A stretch of DNA of 64,000 bases from Eledone cirrhosa (Eukaryota). The DNA lies in NCBI GenBank assembly GCA_964016885.1, contig OZ024742.1, forward strand, positions 254,262,001-254,326,000. The letters run 5' to 3'. Of this stretch, positions 7,608-64,000 are shown piece by piece. Each line of letters opens with the position of its first letter. Positions within the stretch are counted from its first letter, which is position 1. The notes beneath the pieces were generated by a model. That model saw nothing but the letters and a program-made list of their open reading frames with translations. It was not told the DNA's origin and did not search any database. Made by a program: the position numbers and the translations under genes.

Positions 7608-7702
7608 TGTTTCTACTTTTGGCACAAGGCCAGTAATTACCCAGTACTTTATTTTATCGACCCCGTAAGGATGAAAGGCAAAGTTAGCCTCAACGAGATT
7701 TG
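7608..7702 (-). mobile_element. 5'-truncated young SINE (Meta-domain-like) with 18-bp TSD
   Basis: TSD aacagtcattataataac at 7590-7607 and 7703-7720; body matches the SINE at 13445. Confidence 0.85.
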
Positions 7703-7821
7703 AACAGTCATTATAATAACATAAGCCCAATATAATGATATAATGTAAATAGGACTTATATGTAATTCGAACAGCAATTTTATATGGCTCATAATACTTT
7801 TATGAGAAATACAAAGTGAAG

Positions 7822-13444: not shown

Positions 13445-13628
13445 GGCGGTGGATTGGCAGTATCGGTAGAGGGTCGGACGCCATGCTTTCCAGCATAGTT
13501 ACGTCCCTTTACGATCTGAGTTCAAATCCCGCCGAGGTTGACTTTGCCTTTCATCCTTACGGGGTCGATAAAATAAAGTACCAGTAATGAACTGGGTTAT
13601 TGCTGGCCTTGTGCCTAAAGTAGAAACA
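13445..13628 (+). mobile_element. Full-length young tRNA-derived Meta-like SINE inside the LTR element
   Basis: A box tggcagtatcgg, B box gttcaaatcc, gactttgcctttcatccttacggggtcgataaaataaagtaccag. TSD aatattctata at 13432-13442 and 13629-13639. Confidence 0.9.
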
Positions 13629-14523: not shown

Positions 14524-14705
14524 ACTCTAACCTAGTTCTTCACAGTCATTAGCTCGACGTTTGTGAATTGGATATTATTTTGAACATAAATGTTTCTAAA
14601 CTATAATGTTTTGATGTACTTAAATATATTTATCAGAGTTATTTATAATTTTTGGTAGTAAATATGTTTTGATGTGTTGAAATATAAGCATTATTTTTAT
14701 AATTC

Positions 14706-14886
14706 GGTGGATCGGCAGTATCGGTAGAGGGTCGGACGCCATGCTTTCCAGCATAGTTACGTCCCTTTACAATCTGAGTTCAAATCCCGCCGAGGTTGAC
14801 TTTGCCTTTCATCCTTACGGGGTCAATAAAATAAAGTACCAGTAATGCACTGGTTAATTGCTGGCCTTGTGCCTAAAGTAGAAACA
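14706..14886 (+). mobile_element. Young Meta-like SINE
   Basis: Nearly identical to 13445 copy. TSD attatttttataattc / attatttttgtaattc at 14690-14705 and 14887-14902. Confidence 0.9.
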
Positions 14887-16666: not shown

Positions 16667-17004
16667 CCTATCTCACAATTTTCCTCCCACCCACCCCCAT
16701 AGACTATTCGACCAATCAAACCTCAGCAACATGTTGCCCAGCCATTACCAATCCCAACAAACTCTGCCATTACTACTACTACTACTCTTCTTCTAGCCCT
16801 TACCAGCCCCAACAAACCCTGCTATTATTACTACTACTGTCCTTCTAGCCCTGAATTCTTTTACCGTTATGTATGGATGAGCTGAGGATAAATGGAGCAA
16901 TCCTGAATTAATAAATGAATATGAATCCGCGAGTTACAAAGCACCCATGCGAAGCTTCAATTTAGAGACAGGAAGCATACCCCCCCCCCACACACACACA
17001 CAAA

Positions 17005-20000
17005 ACTCCGAGTTGGAACCATGAATGTAAGCACAATGAAAGGAAGAGCAGGAGAAATCGTAGAGATGCTAGAGCGAAAGGAAATTGATGTATGCTGTGT
17101 GCAAGAGACTAGATGGAGAGGAGCGACCACTAGAGTCCTTGTAGGCAAAAGTCAGTGCTACAAATTTTTCTGGGTGGGAAATGACAGCAGGATGGATGGT
17201 GTAGGTATACTATTAGCTGACAAATGGGTAGATAAAGTAATCTCAGTGAACAGGGGGAAGGCAAGAATCATTAAACTCAGACTAGTCCTGAATAAAACAA
17301 TTGCCACAATAATATCAGCTTACACACCCCAATCGGAGTTGCCAGAGGTACTTAAGGATAGGTTTTACGAGTCCCTAATGCACACTACTGCCCTAACAAA
17401 CGACACTGACTTCCTAATCATTGCAGGAGATTTTAACAGACACGTTGGTAAACACCATGATGGCTTCTATAGAGTCCATGGAGGTCACAGGTTTGACACA
17501 AGAAATGAAGAAGAATTCAGGCTTCTAAAATTTTGTGATGCCAATGACATGGTCGATATGTAACACAAACTTCAAAAAACCCGACAACCATCTGATCATC
17601 TATAGATCAGGGGAACATTCTAGTCGGATAGATTTTATCCTCGTCAGAGGATGTGAGAGATGGACAGTTGTAAAAACAAAAGCCTTCCCTGGTGAGGAAT
17701 GTACCTCCCAACATAACTTCGTTGTCAGCAACCTCACTCTCAGAACTAGACGAATTTGGAAACAGAAGGCAACCAGGAGAAGAAAGATCTGGAAGCTGAA
17801 AGACCCCTCAGCCAGTAACAGATTTAAAGATATTTTACTCAACGCCTATGACAATAAAGAAAAACATATACAGACATTCAATGTAGAAGAGCATTGGGAG
17901 TTCCTAAAAAATAACTTACTAAAGGCGACGGATGAGATCTGTGGTTGGAGCAATACCACATGGAGGAGGAGAGTGAATTGGTGGTGGAACAATAAGCTAG
18001 ATGAAGCAGTTAAGGCTAAGAGACAGGCATGGAAAGAATGGAAGAACGGGGGAAGCAGGGTACATTACATAGAGACCAGGAGAGAAGCTAGGCGACAAGT
18101 ATACTTAGCTAGAACGGAAATGGAGGATAAAACATTCAAGCATGTTTTGCAACGTGAAGACCAGAAACAGGAGGTGTTCAAGATTGCAAGGCAGTGTGTC
18201 AGAGAAAATTGTGATGTCATTGGAGAGAAGTGTATCCAGAATGATAAATGTGACATTGCCCTCAGAAGTGCTGAGAAGAAAGATGCATGGAAGAGCCATT
18301 ATGATAGATTACTAAATAAGGAGAATGCATGGGAAAAAGAGACCCTATCCTAAGTGGACCCTATAGAGAGGCCAGCAGTACAAGTCAGTACCAGCGTAGT
18401 ATGTAAGGCAATCAAACATATGAAGATGGGGAAGGCAACTGGTCCATTGGGTATAGCTGCCGAGATGCTGAAGGCATCTGGGTCGGTAGGTCACACCATA
18501 ACCACACATATTGTTAACCAGGTAATACTAGAGTGTGTCATACCAAAGGATTGATGCAGCAGAACATTGTCAACTGCTACAAGGGTAAAGGTGATGCACT
18601 AGATAGAGGAAACTATAGAGGTATAAAGCTGATGGACCAGGTCATGAAAGTAATGGAAAGAGTTATAGCCCACCTGATTAGTGACCGGGTAAAACTAGAT
18701 GAGATGCAATTTCGGTTTGTGCTAGGAAAAGGCACCACTGATGCCCTCTTCCTTGTGAAGCAGTTACAGGAAAAGTACCTAGCTAAAAGTAAGCCGCTCT
18801 ACCTGGCATTCGTCGATCTCGAGAAAGCCTTTGACAGAGTTCCACGTGCTATAATCTGGTGGGCTCTTAGAAAACTAGGAGTAGATGAATGGCTTGTGAA
18901 AGCTGTCTGTACAAGCTATGTATAGGGGAGCAGTCAGCAAAGTTAGAGTTAGCAATGACTATAGCGAGGAAGTTATCATACAGGTTGGTGTCCACCAGAG
19001 CTCTGTTCTTAGCCCTCACCTGTGCATTATAGTTTTGCAGGCAATAACGGAGGAGTTTAAGACCGGATGCCCATGGGAACTTCTATATGCGGATGATCTC
19101 GCACTTATAGCTGAATTTATGGTGCAACTAGAGAAGAAATTTCAAACATGGAAGCAGGGACTAGAAAGAAAGGGTCTCAAAGTCAACCTGACAAAGACTA
19201 CAGTCCTCGTAAGTAGACGAGAAAACCCAGATCCGCTCAGGGAAATGGCCTTGTTCAGTATGTAGGAAAGGTGTAGGTAGGAACTCCATCCTCTGCCCCA
19301 AATGCAAACAATGGGTACACAAGAGATGCAGTGGAATCTCAAGAAGCTTAACTAAGAATGTAGACTTCACATGTAGCAGCTGTGCTGGGACACCAAGCAG
19401 CAAATGGCCACAGGAAACAAGCACCCCCAAACTGTGGGAGAGCTCTGTAGAAACAGTAGACAGATTCTGCTACCTAGGTGACCGAATTAGCAGTGGGTGT
19501 TCGGAAAATACAATAACTAGGGTAAGAACAGAATGGAAGAAGTTCAGGGAGCTAGTGGCACTGCTAGCTGCAAAAAGCTTTTCCCTCAAAATGAAAGGCA
19601 GACTGTATGCTGCGTGTATACAAACAGCAATGTTACATGGTAGTGAGACCTGGGCGCTGTCTGTAGAAGACTTGTGTAGATTAGAAAGAAACAAAGCTTG
19701 CATGCTCCGATGGACGTGTAATAGTAATATATGCGAACAGCAAAGCAGAAATGAATTGAGAGAGAGACTGAGCAAAAGAGGAATCAAATACTGTGTGCAG
19801 GAGAGGAGGTTGCGTTGGTATGGACATGTGATGCGTATGAAGGATGACAGCGGCATAAAAAGGTGCACTAGAAGTCAATGGATGCCACGGAGTGGGAAGA
19901 CCCAAGAAGACCTGGGATGAGGTGATAAAAGCCGACCTTACCCAATTGCTCCTCTCAAAGGTGATGACACATGACCGTAACCTCATGCAGTAATACAGAA

Positions 20001-20340
20001 GACCCGACTTCCCATGGGAACAAGCTGAAGCTGAAGCATAGAGACAATATGCCCCCACCCCTTCCCACTGCAAAGTGTTCATGGAGGTGCCACGGCAAAA
20101 AAAGCACCCAGCCCACACTGTAAAGCGGACGTGTAAGCGCCACGGATATAAAACACCCAGCACTCACTGTAAATGTGGTTGGTGTTAGGAAGGGCATCCA
20201 GCTGTAGAAATCAAGCCAGAATCAGTTCCCGTATGAGCAAGACAAGGTCAGCTGACCGGATACTGCCCATAACAGGACAACCCATCTAATCTATACTAGC
20301 GGGGAAGAATGGACGCAAAACGGTGATGATGATGATAATG
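17005..20340 (+). mobile_element. Near full-length RTE-clade LINE (APE-RT-PHD), pseudogenised
   Basis: LRVGTMNVSTMKG..DVCCVQETRW, IAGDFN, IDFILV, NYRGIKL, FVDLEKAFDRV, LLYADDL, C4HC3 finger, RLRWYGHV. Frameshifts and stops; 3'UTR with ~40-bp subrepeats; (TGA)n tail. Confidence 0.95.
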
Positions 20341-22945: not shown

Positions 22946-23009
22946 CACACCCACACAATAATACCATTCTACTGGTCCTCCTGGAGGACCAGTGCTTTAC
23001 AGGATACCA

Positions 23010-23312
23010 CTTCACACTTCACAGGCAATATAGTTAAGTGGACCACAGGACTTCACACTTCACTGGTAGTATAGTTAAGTAAACCACAGGATTTCACACT
23101 TCATTCGTAGTATAGTTAAATGAACCATATCTCTTCACACTTCACTGGTAATATAGTAAAGGGAACCACAGGACTTCCCACTTCACTGGTAATATAGTTA
23201 AGTGAACCATATCTCTTCACACTTCACTGGTAATACAGTTAAGTGAGCCATATCTCTTCACACTTCACTGGTAGTATAGTTAATTAAACCATATCTTTTC
23301 ACACGTCACTCA
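23010..23312. repeat. 41-bp minisatellite, ~7.5 copies
   Basis: Unit cttcacacttcactggtaatatagttaagtgaaccacagga starts at 23010, 23051, 23092, 23133 and onward. Confidence 0.95.
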
Positions 23313-27212: not shown

Positions 27213-27813
27213 ATATATATGTATATATATATGTATGTGTGTGTGTATGCATCTATGTATGGTAATAATTTATGAAAGCCAGTTCCCACAAAACGCTTCA
27301 GGTTCCATTCTTATATAAGAAGCCATTATTATAGAATGCAATTATTTTAACTATTGAGAAAGAATATTGGTTAGTTCCAAACACACTTATATAAGGACTT
27401 CTTCTGGATTGAAAGAGTAAAAAAAATTAAGGTAAGAAAATACACATATAAAATCCCCAAATTATATATACGTATACTGATTTGAAAGCATACCACATTA
27501 GCAATGAAAGATGCTGCTTATGATTTTCAAATTATTTTGAAAATAATCAAGAATTTAAGGAGATTTAGTAAAATAACTAACTTTCTCTTTGTAATGCTGG
27601 CATATGGAACATAATTTAACAAAAGTTCTTAAGTAAAATTAAAGAAGGCTTACAGATATAAACACTTTAAAACTTCTATCACAGAACCAGAGGCAGTTAT
27701 AGGTGGTTTGATATCAGAAGAGTTAACAATATCTGCCTATTCTTGGGAGCAAAGTAAATTGATACAGTCAGCATAATAAATACATCTTTGTCAATCACTG
27801 ATTGTATTTCATT

Positions 27814-28302
27814 ATCGGTAGAGGGTCGGATGCCATGCTTTCCAGCATAGTTACGTCCCTTTACGATCTGTGTTCAAATCCCGCCGAGGTTGACTTTGCC
27901 TTTCATCCTTACGGGGTCGATAAAATAAAGTACCAGTAATGCACTGGTTAATTGCTGGCCTTGTGCCTAAAGTAGAAACAATTATTTCATTAAAGGGTGG
28001 TGAATTGGCAATATCGGTAGAAGGTCGGACGCCATGCTTTGATGCATAGAGTTACGGCCCTTGCAATTCTGAGTTCAAATCCCGCCGAGGTTAACTTTGC
28101 CTTTCATCCTTACAGGGGTCGATAAAATAAAGTACCAGTAATGCACTGGGTAATTGTGGCCTTGTGTCAATAGTAGAAACAATTATTGATTTAGAATCCC
28201 ACCGAGGTTTACTTTGCCTTTCATCCTTACGGAGGTCGATAAAATAAAGTACCAGTAATGCACTGGGTAATTGCTGGCCTTGTGCCAAAAGTAGAAACAA
28301 TT
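27814..28302 (+). mobile_element. Three head-to-tail Meta-like SINE copies
   Basis: Copies at ~27814-27980, ~27995-28181 and ~28196-28299; repeated flanks tatttcatta and aattattgatttagaat. Confidence 0.9.
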
Positions 28303-36710: not shown

Positions 36711-36809
36711 TTATGTATTACTCTATTATGCTATCATGTGTTCCAGCTGATAGGCTGAGGCTATGCTGGGGCATCACTATTGATGAATTTTCATTATATT
36801 GATATCATT

Positions 36810-36987
36810 GGATTGGCAGTATCGGTAGAGGGTCGGACGCCATGCTTTCCAGCATAGTTATGTCCCTTTACGATCTGAGTTCAAATCCCGCCGAGGTTGA
36901 CTTTGCCTTTCATCCTTACGAGGTCGATAAAATAAAGTACCAGTAATGCACTGGGTAATTGCTGGCCTTGTGCCTAAAGTAGAAACA
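36810..36987 (+). mobile_element. Young Meta-like SINE with 17-bp TSD
   Basis: TSD attatattgatatcatt at 36793-36809 and 36988-37004. Confidence 0.92.
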
Positions 36988-38274
36988 ATTATATTGATAT
37001 CATTCTTATATATATGGCATATATAAATTGTTATATGTCATTATGGCCACAGCATGGTCGAATGGTTAAGAAATTGCTTTACAATCATAAAATCTAAGGT
37101 TCAATCCCACTTCATGGCATCTCGGGCAAATGTCATTAATTAAAGTCTATGGTCAACCCATGTCCTGTGAGTAAATTTTGAGAGACTGAAACTGTTTGGA
37201 TGATTGTCAGATGGATGATACATGTAATCAAAAGGGCTAACCTAGTCATACATTGCGTCATGCTGAATCACTGAGAATTATGTCATGGGTATGTGTGTTT
37301 GAAGAATGTTCAGCCACTTTCAATATAATATTATACAAAATGGACTATAACTGTAATTCAAACATCGAACCTTGTCACTCTGTGTCATGCCGAATTTTCC
37401 TGAGAATTACATGAAAGATACATTTGTCAGTAGAATACTCAGCCACTTCCATGTAATTTCACAAGCTGACTAACCTGTTAATCGAACAATGAGTTCATAC
37501 ATCATTAAAACCAAAAGAGGCTCTTTCTATTCCTTACCAATAAACAATAAAAATTCCTAATAATAAGTGTCAGTGCTGGTTCCATGAAAAAATATGTCCA
37601 ATACATTCTGTAAAGTGGTAGTGCAGGTTCCATGAAAAAATAAGCCCAGTACAATCTGTAATGTGTCAGTGTAGTTCTATGAAAAACTACACCCAGTACA
37701 CTCTTTAAAGTGGTAGTGTTGGTCACATAAAAATTACGCCCAGTGCACTACGTAAAGTGACAATAGGAGTAAAATGAAGAGGAAGAGGTGGAAGATCTGA
37801 TACTACATTGTTACAGGGAAAAAGCTGTGCTTACTTTAAATGCATGAAACATATAAATAATCTATTCCATTTAAGATATGATATTGAAAGAATTAAATGC
37901 ATGCTAGATGTAAAGATATATAAAAAAATCAGTGGACAAAATAAAGATATTTTATGTCTACACCTGAATAAAACACAACGCGTATGTACATTGACAAAGT
38001 ACTTATTTGTAAGAAGTAATATATCAAAGGTTATTATGAAAGGAATCATACACAAACTTTAGATCAATTGACATTTCTTCTAGAAATGACCAGAAGCCAG
38101 TAAATAATCTTTACAACAGATACAACAATATCATTTTCTTATAGGTATTGGTTTCATTTTAGTGTGTGTGTGTGTGTGTGAGGGAGTACATTCTATATTT
38201 CGTTTATTTCTAATTAAAGGTTTATTCTGTTCAAAGGAAAATCTATTTTTTTAGTAACATAAATTTATAGATTT

Positions 38275-43501: not shown

Positions 43502-43680
43502 TTTCTACTTTAAGCACAAGGCCAGCAATTACCCAGTGCATTACTGGTACTTTATTTTATCGACCCCGTAAGGATGAAAGGCAAAGTCAACCTCGGCGGG
43601 ATTTGAACTCAGATCGTAAAGGGACATAACTATGCTGGAAAGCATGGCGTCCGACTCTCTACCGATACTGCCAATCCACC
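43498..43680 (-). mobile_element. Young Meta-like SINE
   Basis: Reverse complement of the 13445 copy, inside (TA)n. Confidence 0.9.
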
Positions 43681-43694
43681 ATATATATATATAT

Positions 43695-50490: not shown

Positions 50491-50770
50491 TGATTTCATT
50501 TATTGGCCACAAGGGCCTAACATAGAGGACATTACTAAGATGGGGACAGTGGGGATTTACATGCAATGGAGTAAAAGAAATTAACAAAACAAATAAACAA
50601 AAATAAAAAAGTATCAACAACAGAATTCCACAATGGGGGGGGGGGTACCACTCAGGGGTGATGTTAGGAAGCCCACAAATCCCAACCCACCCTCATCTCC
50701 AAGATCACCCAAGAAGGGTGCTCCACTCTCCCTCTATCTTTCCAGCTTCATTCACATGGGCCATTCTTGT
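50491..50770 (-). mobile_element. Tx1-like 3'UTR fragment
   Basis: Minus-strand end aggcccttgtggccAATAAAtgaaatc(ATT)n resembles the terminus of the Tx1 at 59404. Confidence 0.6.
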
Positions 50771-50788
50771 AAGTAATAATAATAATAA

Positions 50789-50976
50789 TTGTTTCTACTT
50801 TTGGCACAAGGCCACCAATTACCCAGTATATTACTGGTACTTTATTTTATTGACCCCGTAAGGAAGAAAGGCAAAGTTGACCTCGGCGGAATTTGAACTC
50901 AGAATGGAAAGGGCCGTAACTCTATGCGTCAAAGCATGGTGTCTGACTCTCTACCGATACTGCCAATCCACTGGCC
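50789..50976 (-). mobile_element. Meta-like SINE inside (TAA)n
   Basis: Full copy with agtaataataataataat on both sides. Further copies at 51328-51504 and ~51510-51715 (older), and a remnant at ~45170-45320. Confidence 0.88.
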
Positions 50977-51719
50977 TTAGTAATAATAATAATAATGATT
51001 AATTTTGTATTCGTGCCAAACCTTACATATGGTCATGAATCTTGGGTAATGACCAAAAGTATATGATCACGAATCCAAGTGACCGAAATGGGGTTCCTCT
51101 GGAGGGTTTTTGAAGTAATATTATTCATAGAGTGCTTGGAGATCAGTTAGTCACTCCAAGATGGTTGGATAACATCCATGAGCTTGGCTGGTCAAGCATG
51201 GGGATCTAGCCAGATCAGTTGGAGATGTTTGTTTCTGACAGGACCTGCTGGAAGGGTTATTTGAGGACTCTGCTCCAACAACCATCTCAGGAATAAGTGG
51301 GAGAGGAAGAAGTATAATAATAATAATTGTTTCTACTTTTGGCACAAGGCCAGCAATTACCCAGTACATTACTGGTAGTTTATTTTATCGACCCCGTAAG
51401 GATGAAAGGCAAAGTTAACCTCGGCGGGATTTGATCTCAGACTATAAAGGGCCATAACTCTATGCGTCAAAGCATGGCGTCCGACCCTCTACCGATACTG
51501 CCAAATAATGATTTCTACAATAGACACAAGGCTAGCAATTTGGAGAGAGGGGAAAGTTGATTAAATCGACCCCAGTGCATTACTGGTACTTTATTTTATC
51601 CACCCCTTAAAGATGAAAGGCGAAGGTACCCTTGGCAGGATTTGAACACAGAACATAAAGAGCCGTAACTCTATGCCACGATGCAGAGTGTCCGATACTC
51701 TACCAATACTGCCACTGAC

Positions 51720-54666: not shown

Positions 54667-55545
54667 TCAAGTTTTAGTTTTAACAAAATGTTTAATTCCA
54701 ATAATATGGGTAAATGTCAACACATACATGCGACTAACGATAATTTCACTAAAGATAATTTCACCACCACTACCACGATGAAAACTCTGGTCAAGTCGAC
54801 TCAAATTTCTACTCCAACTTCAACACCATCACTACAGTAATACGACCACATCACCACCACCGCTGCCTCACTATCGCTACCGCCGCTATTATCTCCCACT
54901 ACCTCCTGCTAGTTGCTGCTAGCACAGCACTGCCACCGGCGCCGCTGCCTCAATATCACTACCGCCGCTATTCTCTCCCGCTAGCCCCTGCTACATTGTA
55001 GAATTCTCACTAAAAGAGGGAAACATCGAAATATATAAATAGACTGAATTGATGACCCGATCAAAATAAAAATAAAAAAAAAACAATAATCAAAATCAAG
55101 TTTTAGTTTTAACAAAATGTTTAAATCCAATATTATGGGTAAATGTCAACACATATACGCGACTAACGATAATTTCACTAAAGATAATTTCACCACCAAT
55201 ACCACCACCACTACCACGATGAAAACTCTGGCCAAGTCGACTCAAATTTCTACTCCAACTTCAACACCATCACTACAGTAATACGGCCACATCACCACCA
55301 CCGCTTCCTCACTATCGCTACCGACGCTATTACCTCCCACTACCTCCCGATAGTTGCTGCTAGCACAGCACTGCCACCACCCCCACCGCCGCTGCCTCAG
55401 TATCACTACCGCCGCTATTCTCTCCCGCTATCCGCTGCTTCTACATTGTAGAATTCCCACTAAAAGAGGAAAACATCAAAATATATAAATAGACTGAATT
55501 GATGACCCGGTCAAAATAAAAAAAAACAACAAAAATCAAAATCAA
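54667..55545. repeat. Tandem duplication of a ~430-450-bp unit
   Basis: tcaagttttagttttaacaaaatg...gatgacccg.tcaaaataaaa at ~54667-55095 and ~55096-55545. Confidence 0.92.
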
Positions 55546-55844: not shown

Positions 55845-58800
55845 ATGTCGAACCTAAACAGTTCGAATAACGGTGAAATGGAAACTAGAATGTCATGTGA
55901 CAGACTCTCACCCAACAGGTGCTCCCTGGCTCAGCAGCAGGGACCTGGCTGTCAACCAAATACTGCTGGTGTCGGAGGAAGAAGAAAAAGGAAAGGGACC
56001 AGAACCAACTGGACGAAAGAATTGAATAGAACTGTTATGCAATGTTACCTGAAGAGTAACCCCAAGGAGAAAGGCTATAGGAAAAGGATGCATAACATCT
56101 AGAACGGGATTGGTCCATTTAAATTAGATGAACAAAACTGGCCGGGCATGCTCGGGTAATAAGAACTAATGGGTGGATAAGCGAGCTGGAACTGGAGGAA
56201 CTGGGCAGAGATATTAGCTTGGAGATGGAGGGTGGAGTATGTCAGGCAAACGAGCCAGTGGGAAATGAAGGTGAAGAGGTCGAGAGAACGGAGGAACCAC
56301 CCGAAACAGACAATGATCTGAATGCTGAGATAAATAATACCTGGAACAGAGATACGGCCACTGAGGAGATGAATGCTGACGGGCTAGGACAAGATTAGGT
56401 AGATATCCTAAACTTAGTGGTAGATGAATTGAAGAATGATAGTGGGAGACCTATGAACCTAAGATTTGTAAACAGGAAAAAGTTAAAAGAAACAACAGCT
56501 AAGGTAAACAAAGTCATCCCATACCTTGAGGCGAGGAGCCTTCACCAGTGCAACAATATCCTCAAAGCAACAGCAAATACGGTGAGGAAACTACTTGGTA
56601 TAAAAGCGAGAGGAAACAACGGACAAGAAAGAGCAGAGCCTTGGTGGAAGAAACGACTGAGTGGTCAAATCAGGGAAATGAGAAATGACATTGGAAAGCT
56701 TGAGTCCCTACTGAATGGGACACTAAAAAACATAGACACTAAAAATAGACTGGAAATAAAGTACAAAACTAGGAGGAAAAAGCTAAATATTATCATAGAG
56801 GAACTGAAGCAACGCATTGTAGCAAAAAGTGCAAAAATCAGGCGATACGAGAACAGAGTCAGCCAGTATAGACAGAACCGCATGTTCGACAGCAACGAGA
56901 AGATGCTGTTTGGACAGCTTGAAGGGAAAGAAAGAGGCAACGACTTGATCCCTGGGGCGGAACAAACTAAAACATTCTGGAGAGGAATATGGGAGCAGGA
57001 TGTTAAACATAATGACCAGGCAGTGTGGATTGAGACAGTACAGAAGGAGATCAGTGAACAGGCACGCCAACAAACTGATTTGAGTATCACAATTGAAACT
57101 CCTAAGGGGCAGGCCAAAAAACTAACCAACTGGAAATCACCTGGCCCAGATGGTGTGCAGGGGTATTGGATTAAAAACATAACATCCCTCCACCCGAAAC
57201 TGACAACCATGTTCAATGACTGCTTGATGTCAGGTGAGGTACCAGAGTGGTTGACAAAAGGTACCACAGTTCTGATAATGAAAGACCGAATCAAGGGTAA
57301 TCATGTTACCAACTATAGACCTATCACATGTCTGTCTGTAATGTGGAAACTGTTGACAAGCATTATGTCTGAGGAAATCTACCATCACCTCCACACAAAC
57401 AACTTGTTACCGGACGAACAGAAAGGATGCCGAAAGAAGTCACGTGGTACAAAGGACCAGTTACTTATTGATAAGATAGTAATGATGAATTGCAAGAGGA
57501 GACACACTGGTCTTGCCATGGGATGGATAGACTACAAAAAGGCATTTGACATGGTGCCTCATTCTTGGATCACCAAAAGCCTGGAGATCTTCAAGGTGGC
57601 AGATAACATCAGGCAGTTGTTGTGCAAAAGTATGAAGTCCTGGGAAACAGAGTTAACATCAACTGGAGAATCCTTGGGAAGCGTGAAGATCAAGAGAGGT
57701 ATCTTCCAGGGAGATAGTCTGTCCCCTCTGTTGTTTGTCTTTGCCCTGATGCATCTGACCAGTGTACTGCGAAAAGTGAGAGCAGGATACGGGTTGGGAA
57801 AGGGAGGGCTTACCATCAATCACCTCCTCTTCATGGGCGATCTTAAGCTCTTCGGGAAGAGTGAGAAGGAGTTGGATGTACTTGTTGACACTGTCCGTAT
57901 TTTCAGCAATGATATATGTATGCAATTTGGTATTAGTAAGTGTGGAGTCATTGTGATGAGGAGGGATAAGTTGAGCAGAAGTAACGGAATCCAGATACCA
58001 ACAGGTGAGATGATAAAAGAAATTGACTCTGAGGAAGGATACAAGTTTTTGGGCGTTCTGGAGGCTGATGACATCAAGAACAAAAAAATGAAGGAATTGA
58101 TAAGAACTGAATACCTTCGGAGAGTAAGGAGCGTATTAAAGTCACATCTGAACAGTAGGAATGCCATAAGTGCAGTAAATTCCCGAGCTGTGTCTATTAT
58201 TAGGTACAGTGCGGGAATTCTGAGATGGAATGTTGCTGAACAAAAAGAAATGGATAGGAAGACTAGGAAGCTATTGACTATCTACAATATGTTCTACAAG
58301 AGGAGTGATGTCGATAGACTCTACTTAAGGAGATCTGAGGGTGGAAGAGGTCTTATCAGCATAGAGGACTGTGTTCAGATAAAAAAAAAAAAATTTAAAC
58401 AAATACGTGACTGATAGTAAGGAGCCAATGCTCAGAGCTGCACTGAAGGAGGGGACAATAGGCCAGGGGATGTCCACGGAGTAAATAACATCAAGGAGAA
58501 AGAGCAGCCTTCAGGAAAAATCCCTTCATAGTACCTTCTTTGAGAAAACTGAATTTAGAGATCCACAGACATGGAACTGGTTGAAAAGAGGAGACCTTAA
58601 AAAGGCTACAGAAGGAATATTAATGGCTGCGCAGGAGCATGCCCTCAAAACGAAGTGGTTGAAACACCACATTTACAAGGAGGAGGCTAGCCCACTGTGC
58701 AGGATCTGTGGAGAGAGAGAGAGGAGACTGTGGCTCACATTGTATCCGAGTGTAAACACCTAGCCCAGACTTACTATAAGGGCTGGAGACATGATGTGAT

Positions 58801-59348
58801 GGGCAGGGTGATCCACTGGCACCTATGCAAAGTAAACAATTCACCACATTCTGAGAAGTGGTATGAGCATAAGCCAGAGGCGGTGATGGAAAACGATCAG
58901 GTGAAGGTGCTGTGGGATTTTAGGATACAGACGGACAAGAAACTGGAACACAATAGACCTGACCTGGTGGTTTTGGACAAAGAAAAAAGATCGTGCCTGA
59001 TTGTGGATGTGGCCTGCCCATTCGACACGAGATTGCAAGAGAAGGAGAGGGAGAAAATTAACCGATACCAGGACTTAAAGTGGGAGGTAAAAAGGATTTA
59101 GAACTGCCATGAAGTCAAAGTGATCCCGATTGTCATAGTCGCACTAGGGACTATCTCAAAAAGTTTCCAGGGATGGTTAAAGAAAATTGACCCCTTCACG
59201 CTTTTTGGAACGCTTCAAGAGGCATGCTTGCTGGGAACAGCAAGAACCCTCCGATACGTCCTGAATATCTGAGGCTGCAGGTAGTGGCTTAATATACATC
59301 TCAACAAACTTTCCAGTTAACTAACATCAATGACTGAGACTCAAAGAG
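55845..59348 (+). mobile_element. Near full-length Dong/R4 element (RT + CCHC + RLE), recently disabled
   Basis: N-terminal WTKELN..VMQCY..GYRKRM; 665-aa ORF 56417-58414; CRICGE..H..C; RHD; RPDLVV..IVDVACPFD..EK; (TAA)n tail 59349-59403. Confidence 0.95.
56417..58414 (+). pseudogene. Dong/R4 reverse transcriptase ORF segment
   Basis: NYRPITCL, QKG, DYKKAFD, GIFQGDSLSP, HLLFMGDLKL (first catalytic D of FMDD changed to G), YKFLG. Ends at an A-run frameshift. Confidence 0.92.
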
Positions 59349-59355
59349 TAATAAC

Positions 59356-59404
<49 letters not shown>

Positions 59405-59647
59405 TTTTCTTTATTAACCACAAGGGTTTACATAAAGTAGACATTAAGGACAGTACAGGACAATACAGGACGGTACAAATGGGCATTTCTGCGTGTAAAA
59501 AAAACGGAGGTTGAAATAAAATAACAAAGAAAAATTCCCCAATAGGGGGGAGACTTCGGAGGGACATTTGTGGAGAAAGCCCATTAAAAGACCACAGTGG
59601 CCCTGACCACCAGGGCAAGTGCCCTCTCCCAGTTTTCCACCTTTAAT

Positions 59648-62600
59648 TTACAGACACATACTCAGAGAAGGCCCATTCATTCGGGCCATACTTGCTTCTC
59701 TCACCCATCTTTCAACAAAATGCTGGGAAGAGAGCACTTCCCTCTCTACCCTGATTTTCCTTTTCAAATGAAATTTGAAAAAGTTAATCAGGGCATCACC
59801 GAAGAGGAAAGTGCTCGTCTTCAGCCCTTTCAAACGTGTCCACCATACTATCTCTTTCGCCATGGCCACCAGACAGATAAAAACTGCCTGCCCTTCCCGG
59901 CTAAAGGAAGGGGGCGGGGCAATCCTCACGATGGACTCAGCTGATAGCTGGATCCGTCCTACACGTGACAGCAGGTGTTCGACATAAACCCACAAGTCAG
60001 CAATACTCAGACACTGGACGAGTGCGGGCAGGACGGTTTCGTCGCCCTGCGCACATCTCGGGCATGCCCGGTCGACGGCACCTCCATGCCTGTCGAGTTT
60101 ATCCCGAACTGGCAAAGCTCCTCGGTAGCACTGCCAGGCCAGGGATTTCTGGAAGTTGTCCATAGGCCCCGGCCCGAAAGTCCTTCCGAAGAGATTGGCT
60201 AGTTGATTTTCGTCGACGCCTAGAGTTTCTCCAAGTACGTCGTCGCTCTTCCCCTCCACTAATCCCCTATAGAACGCCAAGGTGGAGTTTCCACCGATCA
60301 CATTGCCCGATTGGTCGAGGGTTGTGAGCGCCTGAAGACATTCCAGTCTCCAAGCGCTCCCTCTCGGTCTTCGCTTGACCCAGGACTGCAGCTCCGTCAA
60401 GGAAACGAGCTGGGGGAAAAACGTGTGTAGCAAACGGCGACCACACCTGATCACCGTCGAGGAAGAGGTGGAGATGTCGTAGCCTGAACGCGTGTCTGCG
60501 CATCATCAGCCACGGCATGCCCAGCCCTCCACGTAGCGGGTGTTGACAGCAGATGGACCGCCTGACCATCGGAGCGCGTCCCTTCCACAAGAAGCGAAAG
60601 AGCAAACGCTCCAGCGCAGTCAGGCGGGGCTTAGGACAAGGTACGACGGTCAGGCGGTAGTAGATGACGGACGCGATGTACGCGTTAGCCACCTCCGCTC
60701 GACCTTTCAGGGATAGCTTCCTCTCCGCCCATTTCTGGGTGAGAGAAGCCACCCTGCTCGTCACCTCGTCCCAGTTTTTGTCCGTCTGGAGGTCTGGACA
60801 GAACCAGACACCTAGCAATTTAACCGGTCCGTCTGTCCAGCGCCCGACGACGCTGTTGGACGGCATGGACCTGCCTCTCCAGGTGCTGAGCTGCAGGCCC
60901 ACTGACTTTTCCTGGTTGATCATTGCTCCTGTCACCGCTTCGTATTCTCTTAGTGTAGTGCCGATCGCCTCAATGTGTTTGGCGTTCGACACCACTACGG
61001 TGACATCGTCGGCATATGCTGACACGGATCTTCCGCATCCTAGTTCGCGCGGGATCCCCCTCAACGTCTCCAGCTTGTGCAGTAATGGCTCGAGAGTCAA
61101 TACGTACAATAGGGACGAGAGGGGACATCCTTGGCGGACCGAGCGCATGATGTTGAACGGTTCCGAAAGGTGACCGTTCACTCTCACTACAGAGCAGATG
61201 TCGCTGTGCATGGCAGCGATCCAGCCTCTGAAGACGGGCCCAAAGCCAGCCGCCCTCAGGACTGCCGCTAGGTAACGATGGTCGACCCTATCGAAGGCTT
61301 TCGACTGATCTAAATTGATCAAAGACCCACCCGTGCCAGGTTCCCTAGCTACCCTCTCTACGATGTATCGCATGAGGTGGAGGTTGTCGTGGATGGATCT
61401 GTCGGGAATGGCGCATGTCTGTGCCTCTCCCACCAGACCACCAACGACAAGCGCCAACCTCTTTGCTAGCACCTTGGCCAAAATCTTGAACTCTGTGTTT
61501 AGCAGTGTTATGGGCCTAAAATTATCTATGTTATCCCCCTTGTTCGGATCCTTTCTCGGCAGCGCCACCGCTCCTCGGCTCACAGAGCTGGGAATTCTCC
61601 CGTTCTGTTGCCAGTTGCAGTTGACGTCCGCCAAGAGGCCTCCGGACAAGTTTGGCATTTGTACGTAAAGTTCATAGGGCAGACCATCCAAACCAGGCGA
61701 TTTACCCCTTGTGCAACTAGTCATTGCATCCAGTACTTCAGCGGTTGTTATCGGCTTTTCGCAACACTCCGCCTCAGTGTCCGAAAGCCGCGGCAGTCCG
61801 TCGAGGTAGACACTAAAGTCCATCCCTCGATCCGGCCCGCCACTTCCCCCGAACAGTTGAGCGATGTGTCGCTGAAAAGCTTCACACATTTGCCCGGGAT
61901 CGAGTAGCATGCGCCCGTCGTGGTCCACCAAAGACCGGATCGTGGCTTTGTTTCCACGACGCGCCTCCGCCAATCGGGCCCATTGAACGGCTGTCGTCCC
62001 CTCGTGTCTGAGAGCACGCACCCTTGCTCTGACAACGCAGCCTTCGTGCTTTGCATTGAAGAATTGGTCAAGGGCCAATTTCGCCGCAAGTACGTCGGTC
62101 GCGATGCCTTTGCTAAGCGCCTCATCTAATTTTCTAACTAATTCTCCCTCTGCTCTATTTTTCTCTATTGCTAAAGTCTTACTAAACCTAATGGACTCTA
62201 TTCTAATTGCTCTTTTCAGAGCAAACCACCACTTGTTGTTGACGATGGCCCCCGTCAACGCCCGCTTAACTAGTTCGCTAATCCGGTCTCTGTAGGCCTT
62301 GCGCGCTGGTAAGGACGCGTTTAGCTTCCAGTAGCCGGGTCCTCGTCTATGAAGCCTATCTAAGTCAAGCACACAGATCACGAATTTGTGGTCCGTGTAG
62401 CTGACTATCTTGAATTGTGGACAGCCTATGCTAGACCTATCTATTTCCCTACAAAATACTCTATCTAGATATGATCTGGATGACCCTATGCGATTTGTCC
62501 AAGTCCACATTGGTACATTCGGGAAATCCATTCGGTACCTGTCAGACAGTTCAAAACGTCTGAGCAGGTTGGTGAGACTCTTGCACCCTCCTTCCCTATC

Positions 62601-63068
62601 CACTAATCCCACACAATCCCAGCGTGCATCTAAGATCCCGTTCCAGTCGCCCACTAACACTAAAGCGCGGGACGTTCCAAGAAAGGTCTCCAGACGCCGG
62701 AAGAAATCAGGCCGCCCTGCTCCTGTCGGGGCATAGACGGCCACTAACCTAAAAGCTTGCCCCTCTCCGCTGGTCACGTCCAGTACCACCAACTTACCTT
62801 CTGGGTCCAGGAAGATGGCCCGTATAGCAAGATCCAAACCTCTCCGAAAAAGCACAGCAACTCCACCCCCCGATCCCGGACGGCTGGGAGATGCGTACAC
62901 ATCGTAGCCGCCGAAGATTGGTGCGAAAGCCTGTGCTTCGGAGATTCTGGTCTGGCTGATGGCCACTACATCTATGTTTAGTGACCTGAGGTCGTTGAGC
63001 AGGTGGCCCTGCTTCCATGACGACCCCAAGCCACGCGCATTTATGCTGCCTATTCTGAGTGAGGTCAT
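59648..63068 (-). pseudogene. Tx1 ORF2 (APE endonuclease, RT, zf-RVT) with one frameshift near 60420
   Basis: SINARGL, VYAP, GDWN, YLDR, TDH, GYWKLN, KSPGLDGLP, NFRPITLLN, DQSKAFDRV, QGCPLS, AYADD; continues in 59648-60454 with CPRC..ET...C. Confidence 0.92.
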
Positions 63069-63102
63069 GTTGAAAAGGAGTGGAAGAGATGGGAAAGACC
63101 AC

Positions 63103-64000
63103 TTACCTTACTTCTCGTAGGGGAAGGACGGTTTTTCCATCCTTTTCACTGCTTGTGGCCTCCTCAGGAAGGATGTCCTTATAAATCCTCCTGGAGAGTG
63201 CTTGTCGGAAGTCTTCGATGTCTTTGGGGAATTTTTGTTTTAGTGTCATGTACGTTTTCTGTGTGATGCGAGTGATTTGTATGTGTGGAGGTGGTGTGAA
63301 TTTTGGGGTTGTTGTGTAGTCTTTTTCTGTGATGCTGGTGTTGTGTTGGATGTAGTGTAATAATTGCTTGTTCAAATTTAATGCTGTGTAGTGTGTATCG
63401 TTTTGGTTGTTTTGTTTTGTTTGCGTTTGTTGTGGGTTTGTTTCTGTTTCGCATTTTGGTGACTTTTGTGGTGTAGGTGATGGTGGTGTTGGGGTTAATG
63501 ATGGTGATGGTGTTGGTGTTTGTGTTGATGGAGTTGGTGATGCTGGTGTGGATGGTGGCATATCTGTCCTAACTTTTTTGTTTCTTAATTTATTTGTTTC
63601 CCTCTGTATTTTGTTTTTGGAGGGGGAAGGAAGGGAATTTTTTTTTGTTTCTTTTTCTTTTTTTCTTTTTTCCTGATACCGTTTCCCACTCCTCGTCGTC
63701 ACAATTTGACTCCAGTTGCGATAGGTCGGGGAGTGGAAAATCCTCCACAGGCGTTGGTTTTGGTTGTGGCGTGGAGGATGGTGTAGGCGCTGGTGCTAGT
63801 TCTGGCGCGTTCGGTGGTGGTGGTGTTGGTTTTCCTACTGTTGCTGGGGTTGTTGCTGTTCCAGTTGCTTCTGTTTGTGCTGCCATTTCTGCTGCTGGTG
63901 GTGTTGATGGTTGAATCACTGGGGTGGGTAAGAGAGATGGCCTCAACCTTTTAGCCTGAGGGCAGAAAGCCCTTAGGTGGGTTCCTTCACCACAAACGGC
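63103..64000 (-). pseudogene. Tx1 ORF1 C-terminal region (Pro/Thr-rich), frameshifted
   Basis: Overlapping ORFs 63590-63946 and 63103-63702 directly upstream of ORF2; EEWETVSGKKKKRK motif. Confidence 0.7.

What the first reader, a model, noticed from the sequence alone, without database searches (positions are those of the whole stretch)
36793..37004. Target-specific SINE apparently mobilised by the Tx1 LINE (shared 3' end, ATTATT target)
Seen: the SINE ends ggccttgtgccaaaagtagaaacaATTATT. The Tx1 ends cccttgtggttaataaagaaaacATTATT (59404, minus) and its relative ends ggcccttgtggccaataaatgaaatcATTATT (50491, minus). SINE TSDs of 10-18 bp start with ATTAT/AATATT/TTATT-like sequence (7590, 13432, 14690, 27805, 28181, 36793). 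Copies at 50789 and 51328 sit in (TAA)n in the same orientation as Tx1. Known: SINEs borrow the 3' end of a partner LINE and Tx1 APEs are often sequence-specific, but most tRNA SINEs pair with L2/CR1/RTE. Inference: an active Tx1-dependent, (ATT)n-targeting SINE/LINE pair.
Basis: partly seen in the sequence, partly recalled or inferred. Interest (0 to 1): 0.75.

Follow-up and report, generated by a model that had tools for sequence, protein, structure and literature searches.

The report
SINE riding ATTAT-seeking Tx1 LINEs
A very abundant short jumping repeat ends in a tail resembling that of one group of long jumping genes and sits at the same short ATTAT sites with similar flanking duplications, so those long elements likely copy it, probably by recognising a small predicted RNA hairpin in the tail.

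Summary
Real. A ~180-bp tRNA-type SINE lies at 36809-36987 inside a perfect 17-bp duplication starting ATTAT; 135,091 exact tail-plus-ATTAT matches exist genome-wide. Its last 28 nt match six Tx1-type LINE ends (z 2.8-5.2) but none of seven other LINE ends (z<2). All carry a CUUGU-type loop 16-17 nt from the end on a covarying stem. SINE and Tx1 duplications have the same length (medians 15.5 and 16), start (ATTAT) and -1 bias. Six reciprocal SINE/Tx1 tail-swap chimeras join exactly in that loop. Corrections: the SINE target is a 5-6-bp motif, not (ATT)n arrays (5 of 70 copies have four or more units, against 21 of 32 Tx1); the window's Tx1 family gives the weakest tail match; current activity is not shown. 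A CR1 with an ATT tail and Dong (other strand) fit worse. Trans-mobilisation is inferred, and the Tx1 subclade was not tested against named references. Precedents: SINEU/Tx1-Mar and plant/algal L1 pairs. This scan has reported the same pair from at least eight other windows of this genome.

The parts
36809..36987 (+). SINE copy, young subfamily, lacking about 5 nt at the 5' end
   Evidence: blastn and TSD scan; subfamily median 2.2% from consensus
36793..36809 (+). Left copy of the 17-bp target-site duplication, starting ATTAT
   Evidence: sequence
36988..37004 (+). Right copy of the 17-bp target-site duplication
   Evidence: sequence
36814..36825 (+). A-box-like Pol III promoter element
   Evidence: read by eye against a recalled consensus (one mismatch); no Rfam or ARAGORN hit at normal thresholds
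36879..36887 (+). B-box-like Pol III promoter element
   Evidence: matches the recalled consensus GWTCRANNC; read by eye
36964..36974 (+). Predicted 3' hairpin: 3-bp stem around the loop CUUGU, 16 nt before the SINE end
59404..64000 (-). Tx1-type L1-clade LINE (family A). It runs on about 1.3 kb beyond the window end (L080) and is full length with (ATT)n on both sides; its ORFs are interrupted in this copy (ORF2 in two frames)
59416..59428 (-). Tx1 3' hairpin: 4-bp stem around the loop CUUGU, followed by AATAAA, 16 nt from loop to end
59349..59403 (.). (TAA)n tract: tail of the Dong-like LINE on +, target of the Tx1 on -
55872..59348 (+). Dong/R4-like restriction-endonuclease-type LINE (broken); a rival partner, ending on the opposite strand sense (TAA)
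   Evidence: clade name from recalled protein features
50492..50731 (-). 3' remnant of an older Tx1 relative (B type) with the same hairpin, followed by ATTATT
50790..50975 (-). SINE copy, older subfamily, 18-bp TSD in an ATT run
51328..51715 (-). SINE copy inserted at the ATTAT behind an older long-form SINE (head to tail)
27810..28299 (+). Three SINE copies head to tail, each at the ATTAT left by the previous one
13445..13628 (+). Full-length SINE copy, 11-bp TSD starting AATAT
14703..14886 (+). SINE copy, 16-bp TSD
43502..43683 (-). SINE copy in ATT(AT)n, 17-bp TSD
7608..7705 (-). 5'-truncated SINE copy, 18-bp TSD starting GTTAT

Best explanation
This is a copy of a very abundant tRNA-type SINE whose tail resembles the 3' end of this genome's ATT-targeting L1/Tx1-type LINEs and which sits at the same ATTAT sites, so those LINEs likely supply the enzyme that copies it, probably by binding a predicted small hairpin in the tail. 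Steps. (1) Shown: the tail similarity, the shared target start, the TSD length and the head-to-tail stacking. (2) Inferred: Pol III transcribes the SINE from its A/B boxes and reads into the flank, so the RNA ends with the hairpin, 16 nt, and AUUAU. (3) Inferred: Tx1 ORF2 binds the CUUGU hairpin, as L2 ORF2 binds its stem-loop (PMC4176376). (4) Inferred from the junctions: the endonuclease nicks the bottom strand at 5'-ATAAT/R-3', and reverse transcription starts at the last SINE base, so no tail is added (TSD offset 0 in 65 of 77). (5) Inferred: the second nick falls about 9-20 nt downstream and duplicates ATTAT, which re-creates the target behind each copy. (6) Inferred: LINE RNAs, cut downstream of their AATAAA, carry more AUU units and so end up in longer (ATT)n tracts than the SINE does. 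Odds: partner is the ATT-type Tx1 lineage about 0.85; with hairpin recognition as well about 0.65.
For: Tail alignment z 2.8-5.2 against six Tx1 ends (2.7 for the 50492 end) and -1.3 to 1.8 against seven other LINE ends: CR1, two Dong-like, a third RLE-type, two RTE, one BovB-like. Hairpin: loop-closing C-G in 81 of 83 Tx1 and 134 of 144 SINE tails; pair 2 is C-G in Tx1 (81 of 83) and G-C in the SINE (129 of 144); pair 3 is G-C (43) or A-U (32) among Tx1. Covariation score 0.54, against 0.20 shuffled and at most 0.10 slid. SINE target logo Y|ATTAT(T/A), median TSD 15.5 bp, n=74. Tx1 TSDs median 16 bp, -1 base T13/C8/A4/G0, n=25. In 11 of 94 SINE TSDs a variant start (GTTAT, AATAT, ATTAA, ATTAG) is on both flanks, so it is target and not tail. 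Genome-wide, 135,091 SINE ends precede ATTAT and 2 precede the TCTA target of the sister Tx1 family that has the same hairpin. Four SINE bodies carry a true Tx1 tail and two Tx1 bodies carry a true SINE tail, all joined in the loop. Naturally intact ORF2 copies exist and ages overlap. No LINE carrying the exact SINE tail was seen among 30 of 67 hits with non-SINE bases just upstream.
Against: The shared tail is only about 23-28 nt and 55-70% alike. The hairpin folds no better than shuffles (z 0.07 to -1.3) and the young SINE stem is 3 bp. Covariation rests on 16 chosen, related rows and about three events. Target context differs: four or more ATT units follow 5 of 70 SINE copies but 21 of 32 Tx1 copies, and 12,577 of 13,045 ATT-type Tx1 ends continue ATTATT against 44 of 56 SINE ends. 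Only 25 of 58 mappable Tx1 copies show a TSD of 9 bp or more (control mean 11, max 18); 45 of the 77 Tx1 copies were selected for an ATTAT flank, and 19 in long ATT runs were set aside. Ages do not discriminate, since CR1, Dong and RTE copies are as young. The chimeras could come from microhomology or gene conversion rather than template switching. LINE families were sampled from under 2 Mb of 3 Gb.
Confidence: 0.65

Rival explanations
1. The Tx1 is the partner but does not read the hairpin. The SINE RNA is captured loosely and primed only through pairing of its AUUAU read-through with the nicked target; the tail similarity is a relic of origin.
For: The hairpin is weak. The TCTA-targeting Tx1 family has the same hairpin yet places 2 SINE ends against 135,091 at ATTAT, so the hairpin alone does not decide which enzyme succeeds. 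A few copies carry 1-6 extra letters before the TSD (12 of 77).
Against: The loop and its 16-17-nt spacing are kept across Tx1 families and SINE subfamilies while the 3' UTRs upstream differ. Stem changes are compensatory. Variant targets such as GTTAT are used with no templated A.
Confidence: 0.2
2. The CR1-like LINE of this genome, which ends in (ATT)n on the same strand, mobilises the SINE.
For: CR1a has an ATT tail in the same sense, at least 5,924 exact ends, young copies, and CR1/RTE are the commonest SINE partners (PMC3747384, section 7).
Against: No tail similarity (z -0.6 to 1.1). ATTAT lies at the 5' junction in 1 of 19 mapped CR1a copies against 90 of 121 SINE copies. The 7 of 24 came mostly from an internal 3' UTR duplication (6 of the 7).
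Confidence: 0.05
3. A Dong/R4-like element, known to target TAA repeats, mobilises the SINE.
For: Two young Dong-like families use the same repeat. Dong targets TAA (PMC3812793). Dong-R4 has the most recently active LINE insertions in Octopus vulgaris (PMC13282606).
Against: Dong ends read TAATAA on the sense strand, the SINE and Tx1 ends read ATTATT: opposite strands. No tail similarity (z below 1.3). Dong TSDs were not measured.
Confidence: 0.03
4. An unsampled LINE family with a better tail match is the true partner.
For: Under 2 Mb of 3 Gb was examined, and the Tx1 match is short.
Against: Only 67 genome hits carry the exact tail after four non-SINE bases; the 30 inspected were SINE variants or tail-only insertions, judged by motif and by eye. 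The chimeras involve Tx1 tails.
Confidence: 0.07

Closest known systems
SINEU / Tx1-Mar of crocodilians (Kojima 2015, PMC4494074; passages and section 16 read)
   Same: A SINE inferred to be mobilised by Tx1-clade LINEs from shared target preference and concurrent age.
   Different: SINEU has a U1/U2 snRNA head and targets a Mariner element. The passages I read argue from target, age and shared 5' heads, not from a shared 3' tail. Here the head is tRNA-like, the tail and hairpin are shared, and the target is a 5-6-bp motif.
Stringent L1-clade pairs: maize LINE1-1_ZM with ZmSINE2/3, Chlamydomonas L1-1_CR with SINEX-3_CR (PMC3472496 first third, PMC3747384 passages)
   Same: A tRNA SINE sharing a 3' end with an L1-clade LINE; in maize a hairpin with a conserved loop and a variable, compensated stem.
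   Different: Plants and algae, shared tails of about 50-80 nt, ending in poly(T) or poly(A), no sequence-specific target stated. [quoted passage not shown]
Kibi (TC)n, Koshi (TTC)n and crocodilian (TTCC)n/(TTTC)n Tx1 families (PMC4494074, PMC3812793 passages)
   Same: Microsatellite-targeting APE LINEs of the Tx1 group.
   Different: Targets here are (ATT)n and (TCTA)n; no partner SINE is named for those families in the passages read.
L2 stringent system, zebrafish ZfL2-1/2-2 and eel UnaL2 (PMC4176376 abstract and Discussion)
   Same: ORF2 recognition of a 3' stem-loop with an essential loop and an exchangeable stem; this is the model for the proposed mechanism.
   Different: L2 clade, shown by experiment; here L1 clade and inferred only.
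Octopus tRNA-derived SINEs (Ohshima and Okada 1994; seen only as a reference, resemblance to the OK family recalled)
   Same: The older long form resembles the common octopus SINE as I recall it.
   Different: Not compared by sequence; no partner LINE found in my searches. The young form lacks an internal stretch of about 30 nt.

Membership tests
tRNA-derived SINE | Short, non-coding, highly repeated, with TSDs and 5' truncations | tested here: met
   about 185 bp; 135,091 tail matches; TSDs and truncated copies
tRNA-derived SINE | Head homologous to a tRNA, with A and B boxes | tested here: inconclusive
   A/B-like boxes by eye and a strongly folding head (z -3.8), but no Rfam hit at E up to 10, no ARAGORN gene, and only a poor relaxed call
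tRNA-derived SINE | Pol III transcription | not testable with these tools
   no RNA holder listed
L1 superclade LINE | Two ORFs; ORF2 with APE, RT and C-terminal zinc domain, closest to L1 | tested here: met
   Exo_endo_phos, RVT_1 and zf-RVT; best solved relative human L1 ORF2p at E 1.7e-52 against R2 at 1e-21; apart from CR1, RTE and RLE elements in the tree
Tx1 clade | RT phylogeny with named Tx1 members (Tx1L, Kibi, Koshi, Keno) | not testable with these tools
   homologue searches returned no names; no reference library available
Tx1 clade | Sequence-specific insertion, no poly(A) tail | tested here: met
   13,045 ends directly followed by ATTAT; a sister group in (TCTA)n
Tx1 clade | Gag-like ORF1 with zinc knuckle (recalled) | tested here: inconclusive
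   zf-CCHC at E 0.004, below cut-off, in 1 of 4 ORF1s
Stringent SINE/LINE pair | Shared 3' sequence, better than with other LINEs | tested here: met
   short (23-28 nt)
Stringent SINE/LINE pair | Conserved 3' stem-loop with compensatory changes | tested here: met
   stability no better than shuffles
Stringent SINE/LINE pair | Same integration signature (target, strand, TSD length) | tested here: met
   repeat context differs
Stringent SINE/LINE pair | Overlapping activity periods | tested here: inconclusive
   they overlap, but so do the rival LINEs
Stringent SINE/LINE pair | Trans-mobilisation that depends on the tail | not testable with these tools
   needs an assay

The most novel reading that the evidence does not exclude
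An animal L1/Tx1-lineage LINE still uses stringent recognition of a minimal 3' hairpin (CUUGU loop at fixed spacing) and drives a tail-less SINE of over 130,000 copies to a fixed ATTAT motif. The reciprocal tail-swap chimeras are snapshots of how SINEs acquire LINE tails. A sister lineage with the same hairpin but a TCTA target is shut out, so RNA recognition and target choice can be separated in one natural system.
Probability: 0.5. Interest if true: 0.62.

Novelty: new variant of a known kind. Interest (0 to 1): 0.45.

Why it matters
Only three SINEs with L1-clade tails were listed among 58 pairs, all from plants or algae (PMC3472496), and the one Tx1-mobilised SINE I found in print was inferred without a shared tail (PMC4494074). 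An animal case would bear on whether stringent 3' recognition is ancestral in the L1 clade and was lost on the way to mammalian L1. It would name the engine of a major SINE in this genome and explain the head-to-tail stacks. It also offers a compact test system: a hairpin of about 11-13 nt, a 5-bp target, and two related enzymes with the same hairpin but different targets. The principle of tail-sharing SINE/LINE pairs is established, so the advance is in range and detail, not in kind.

Tried and rejected
DNA search of the genome with the whole SINE returned nothing because common words are skipped; patterns were used instead. Empty-site test: laying contigs of runs X1, X2, X4, X5, X6, X7 showed no listed joint skipping the SINE and no empty allele (tables were cut), so polymorphism is neither shown nor excluded. 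No RNA holder listed. Rfam and ARAGORN did not recognise the head. Homologue, cluster and Atlas searches gave no clade names. The 50491 row was mis-sliced and was redone. The 7 of 24 CR1 'TSDs' were traced mostly to an internal duplication. Age profiles do not separate candidate partners. Folding energy does not support the hairpin by itself. '(ATT)n-targeting' was rejected for the SINE. Penelope and LTR elements were not tested as partners. Literature: searches found no paper describing an octopus SINE with a Tx1 partner. Repbase, Dfam, SINEBase entries, Ohshima and Okada 1994 and Kojima and Fujiwara 2004 could not be read, and the supplements of PMC3472496 and PMC4494074 were not opened; any of these may already record the pair. 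One supplement of PMC13282606 was searched (no 'partner').

Full report
1. Observation. The finding spans a SINE copy (36809-36987, +) and its two identical 17-bp flanks, which start ATTAT. Ten copies with complete 3' ends lie in the window. A 33-nt tail pattern has 35,920 exact matches in the 3.0-Gb genome, and the tail followed by ATTAT has 135,091; reversed-pattern controls give 0. Both junctions are seen without mismatch in contigs of run X1, which may be the source sample. The family also occurs, with head-to-tail joints, in run X4 of another organism code. That the host is an octopod rests on my recall of the SINE's look and was not tested.

2. SINE anatomy and target. The element is about 185 bp, with A- and B-box-like motifs read by eye and a head that folds well (z -3.8); Rfam and ARAGORN do not call it. 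Among 62 near-full-length copies, 20 form a young subfamily (median 2.2% from consensus) and 42 an older one (6.2%); a longer, more diverged form also exists. In eight 100-kb blocks chosen without regard to content, 56 of 70 3' flanks start ATTAT, 6 GTTAT, 3 ATTAA, 3 AATAT and 2 other. TSDs of 9 bp or more were found in 35 of 70, against 4.9 with mismatched flanks. Over all loci, 94 of 182 have such a TSD; 20 of these sit directly behind another SINE or Tx1 end. The other 74 give a median of 15.5 bp and the logo Y|ATTAT(T/A), with -1 T 51%, C 39%, G 1%. In 11 of 94 a variant start is on both flanks, so ATTAT is target and not tail. The TSD begins right at the SINE end in 65 of 77 non-simple cases. 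Only 5 of 70 copies are followed by four or more ATT units: the target is a short motif, not an array.

3. The LINE. The element at 59404-64000 (-) continues about 1.3 kb past the window and is full length with (ATT)n on both sides. Its ORFs are interrupted here, but intact ORF2 frames exist in other copies (six stop-to-stop frames of 1,152-1,204 aa). ORF2 has APE, RT and zf-RVT domains and is closest to human L1 ORF2p among solved structures. No named Tx1 reference was available, so 'Tx1' is inferred from L1-clade placement plus microsatellite targeting. Several families occur: A, B and C end at ATTAT, while D ends in (TCTA)n and forms one well-supported group. Of 13,045 ATT-type ends followed by ATTAT, 12,577 continue ATTATT, and 21 of 32 unselected copies have four or more units. 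Of 77 copies with a mapped 5' boundary (45 picked for an ATTAT[ACG] flank), 19 have a long ATT run at the 5' side and were set aside; 18 of those are full length. Of the other 58, 25 show a TSD of 9 bp or more (control mean 11.2, max 18), median 16, with -1 base T13, C8, A4. Several of these are unique-sequence duplications of 11-18 bp.

4. Tail comparison. The last 28 nt of the 36809 copy score z 2.8 (window Tx1A), 3.9 (B), 4.6 (C), 5.2 (an older B), 3.9 and 4.7 (D) against shuffles, and 2.7 against the 50492 end. Seven other LINE ends from the sample score -1.3 to 1.8. All Tx1 ends and the SINE have a 5-nt loop, mostly CUUGU, 16-17 nt from the end, with GAAA near the end. In 83 Tx1 and 144 SINE tails the closing pair is C-G; pair 2 is C-G in Tx1 and G-C in the SINE; pair 3 is G-C or A-U among Tx1 families. 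On 16 chosen variants, 92% of cells pair and the covariation score is 0.54, against 0.20 shuffled and at most 0.10 slid; the rows are related, so this reflects about three events. The hairpin is not unusually stable. The SINE lacks the AATAAA of the LINE.

5. Chimeras. Four SINE bodies end in a true Tx1 tail: L291, L321 (the window's family A tail), L322 and L323. Two Tx1 bodies end in a true SINE tail: L324 and L325. All six join in the loop. Point mutation cannot explain them, as seven or more changes separate the family A tail from the SINE tail. Template switching, microhomology-primed insertion of a very short copy at the adjacent ATTAT, or gene conversion could each produce them; they show in-register homology at a shared site, not mobilisation.

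6. Rivals. A CR1-like family ends in (ATT)n on the same strand, but has no tail similarity, and ATTAT lies at its 5' junction in 1 of 19 mapped copies (11 of 30 ran past the locus) against 90 of 121 SINE copies. Two Dong-like families use the repeat from the other strand, and the window's Tx1 sits in the tail of one. RTE and BovB-like ends have other tails. A search for the exact SINE tail behind non-SINE bases gave 67 hits; the 30 inspected were SINE variants or tail-only insertions. The TCTA family shares the hairpin but only 2 SINE ends precede its target, so either its enzyme does not take the SINE or tail-primer pairing decides. Ages overlap for all families (nearest-neighbour medians 1.5-3.2%).

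7. Mechanism. Most likely: Pol III read-through RNA ending in hairpin, spacer and AUUAU; capture by ATT-type Tx1 ORF2; a bottom-strand nick at ATAAT/R; priming at the last SINE base; and a staggered second nick that gives a 9-20-bp duplication and renews the target. The junction geometry is shown; the enzyme assignment and hairpin recognition are inferred (about 0.85 and 0.65).

8. Known context. SINEU was assigned to Tx1-Mar by target and age (PMC4494074; passages and section 16). Three SINEs with L1-clade tails are listed among 58 pairs, from maize/sorghum and Chlamydomonas (PMC3472496 first third; PMC3747384 passages and section 7). Stem-loop recognition is shown for L2 (PMC4176376 abstract and Discussion). 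Microsatellite targets of Kibi, Koshi and Dong are listed in PMC3812793 (passages). The Octopus vulgaris annotation lists young L1-Tx1 and Dong-R4 families and mostly unclassified SINEs (PMC13282606 first third and one supplement search). Passages of PMC4758252, PMC4824008, PMC3531059, PMC5804259, PMC9115989 and PMC5786205 named no such pair. Nine searches found no description; Repbase and Dfam could not be checked. The scan's own notes list the same pair from eight other windows of this genome; these are unreviewed and are not counted as support.

9. Verdict. A real and well-supported candidate SINE/L1-Tx1 pair in an animal, with a short-motif target. New variant of a known kind; interest 0.45.

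Noticed in passing
window 55872-64000 and L080: The Tx1 sits tail to tail in the (TAA)n tail of a Dong-like LINE, and a second Dong-like copy with a SINE in its tail follows just beyond the window. Two Dong-like families (TAA strand) and Tx1, CR1 and the SINE (ATT strand) share one microsatellite.
   Followed up: partly
L061-L062, L072, L237, L239, L254, L255: 18 of 21 full-length ATT-type Tx1 copies have a long (ATT)n run at the 5' side, even when the 3' flank is not a repeat (L239 shows a 17-bp match to the 3' flank upstream of the run). The transcript may begin inside the upstream repeat.
   Followed up: partly
L067-L068, L072-L073 versus L061-L062: Near-identical Tx1A ORF2 and 3' UTR occur with two different 5' halves (ORF1 frames of 531 and 713 aa; alignment breaks at the ORF1/ORF2 junction), suggesting 5' module swapping.
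   Followed up: no
L062:5420-7012, L072:3889-6027, L079:306-1856: Weak MBD-domain hits (E 0.005-0.03, below cut-off) in three of four Tx1 ORF1 proteins.
   Followed up: no
L141-L150, L121-L130: A sister Tx1 lineage with the same 3' hairpin targets (TCTA)n; one supported group in the RT tree, placed next to the ATT-type B family with moderate support.
   Followed up: partly
L191, L195, L200, L206, L207, L215: A CR1-like subfamily carries an internal tandem duplication of the last ~113 nt of its 3' UTR, including a degenerate ATT tail.
   Followed up: no
window 16925-20022 (+): RTE-type LINE whose reading frame includes a PHD finger after the RT (Pfam PF00628, E 1e-6).
   Followed up: no
L265, L282, L288: Tail-only SINE insertions of about 24 nt, beginning at the hairpin, each with its own ATTAT-started duplication of 11-15 bp.
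   Followed up: partly
L151-L160 (G000:C7:30.0-30.1 Mb): A 100-kb block with 20% G+C and no SINE hit, probably a satellite region.
   Followed up: no
window 23008-23310, 37565-37778, 54667-55539: Tandem repeats with periods of 41, 47 and 441 bp.
   Followed up: no
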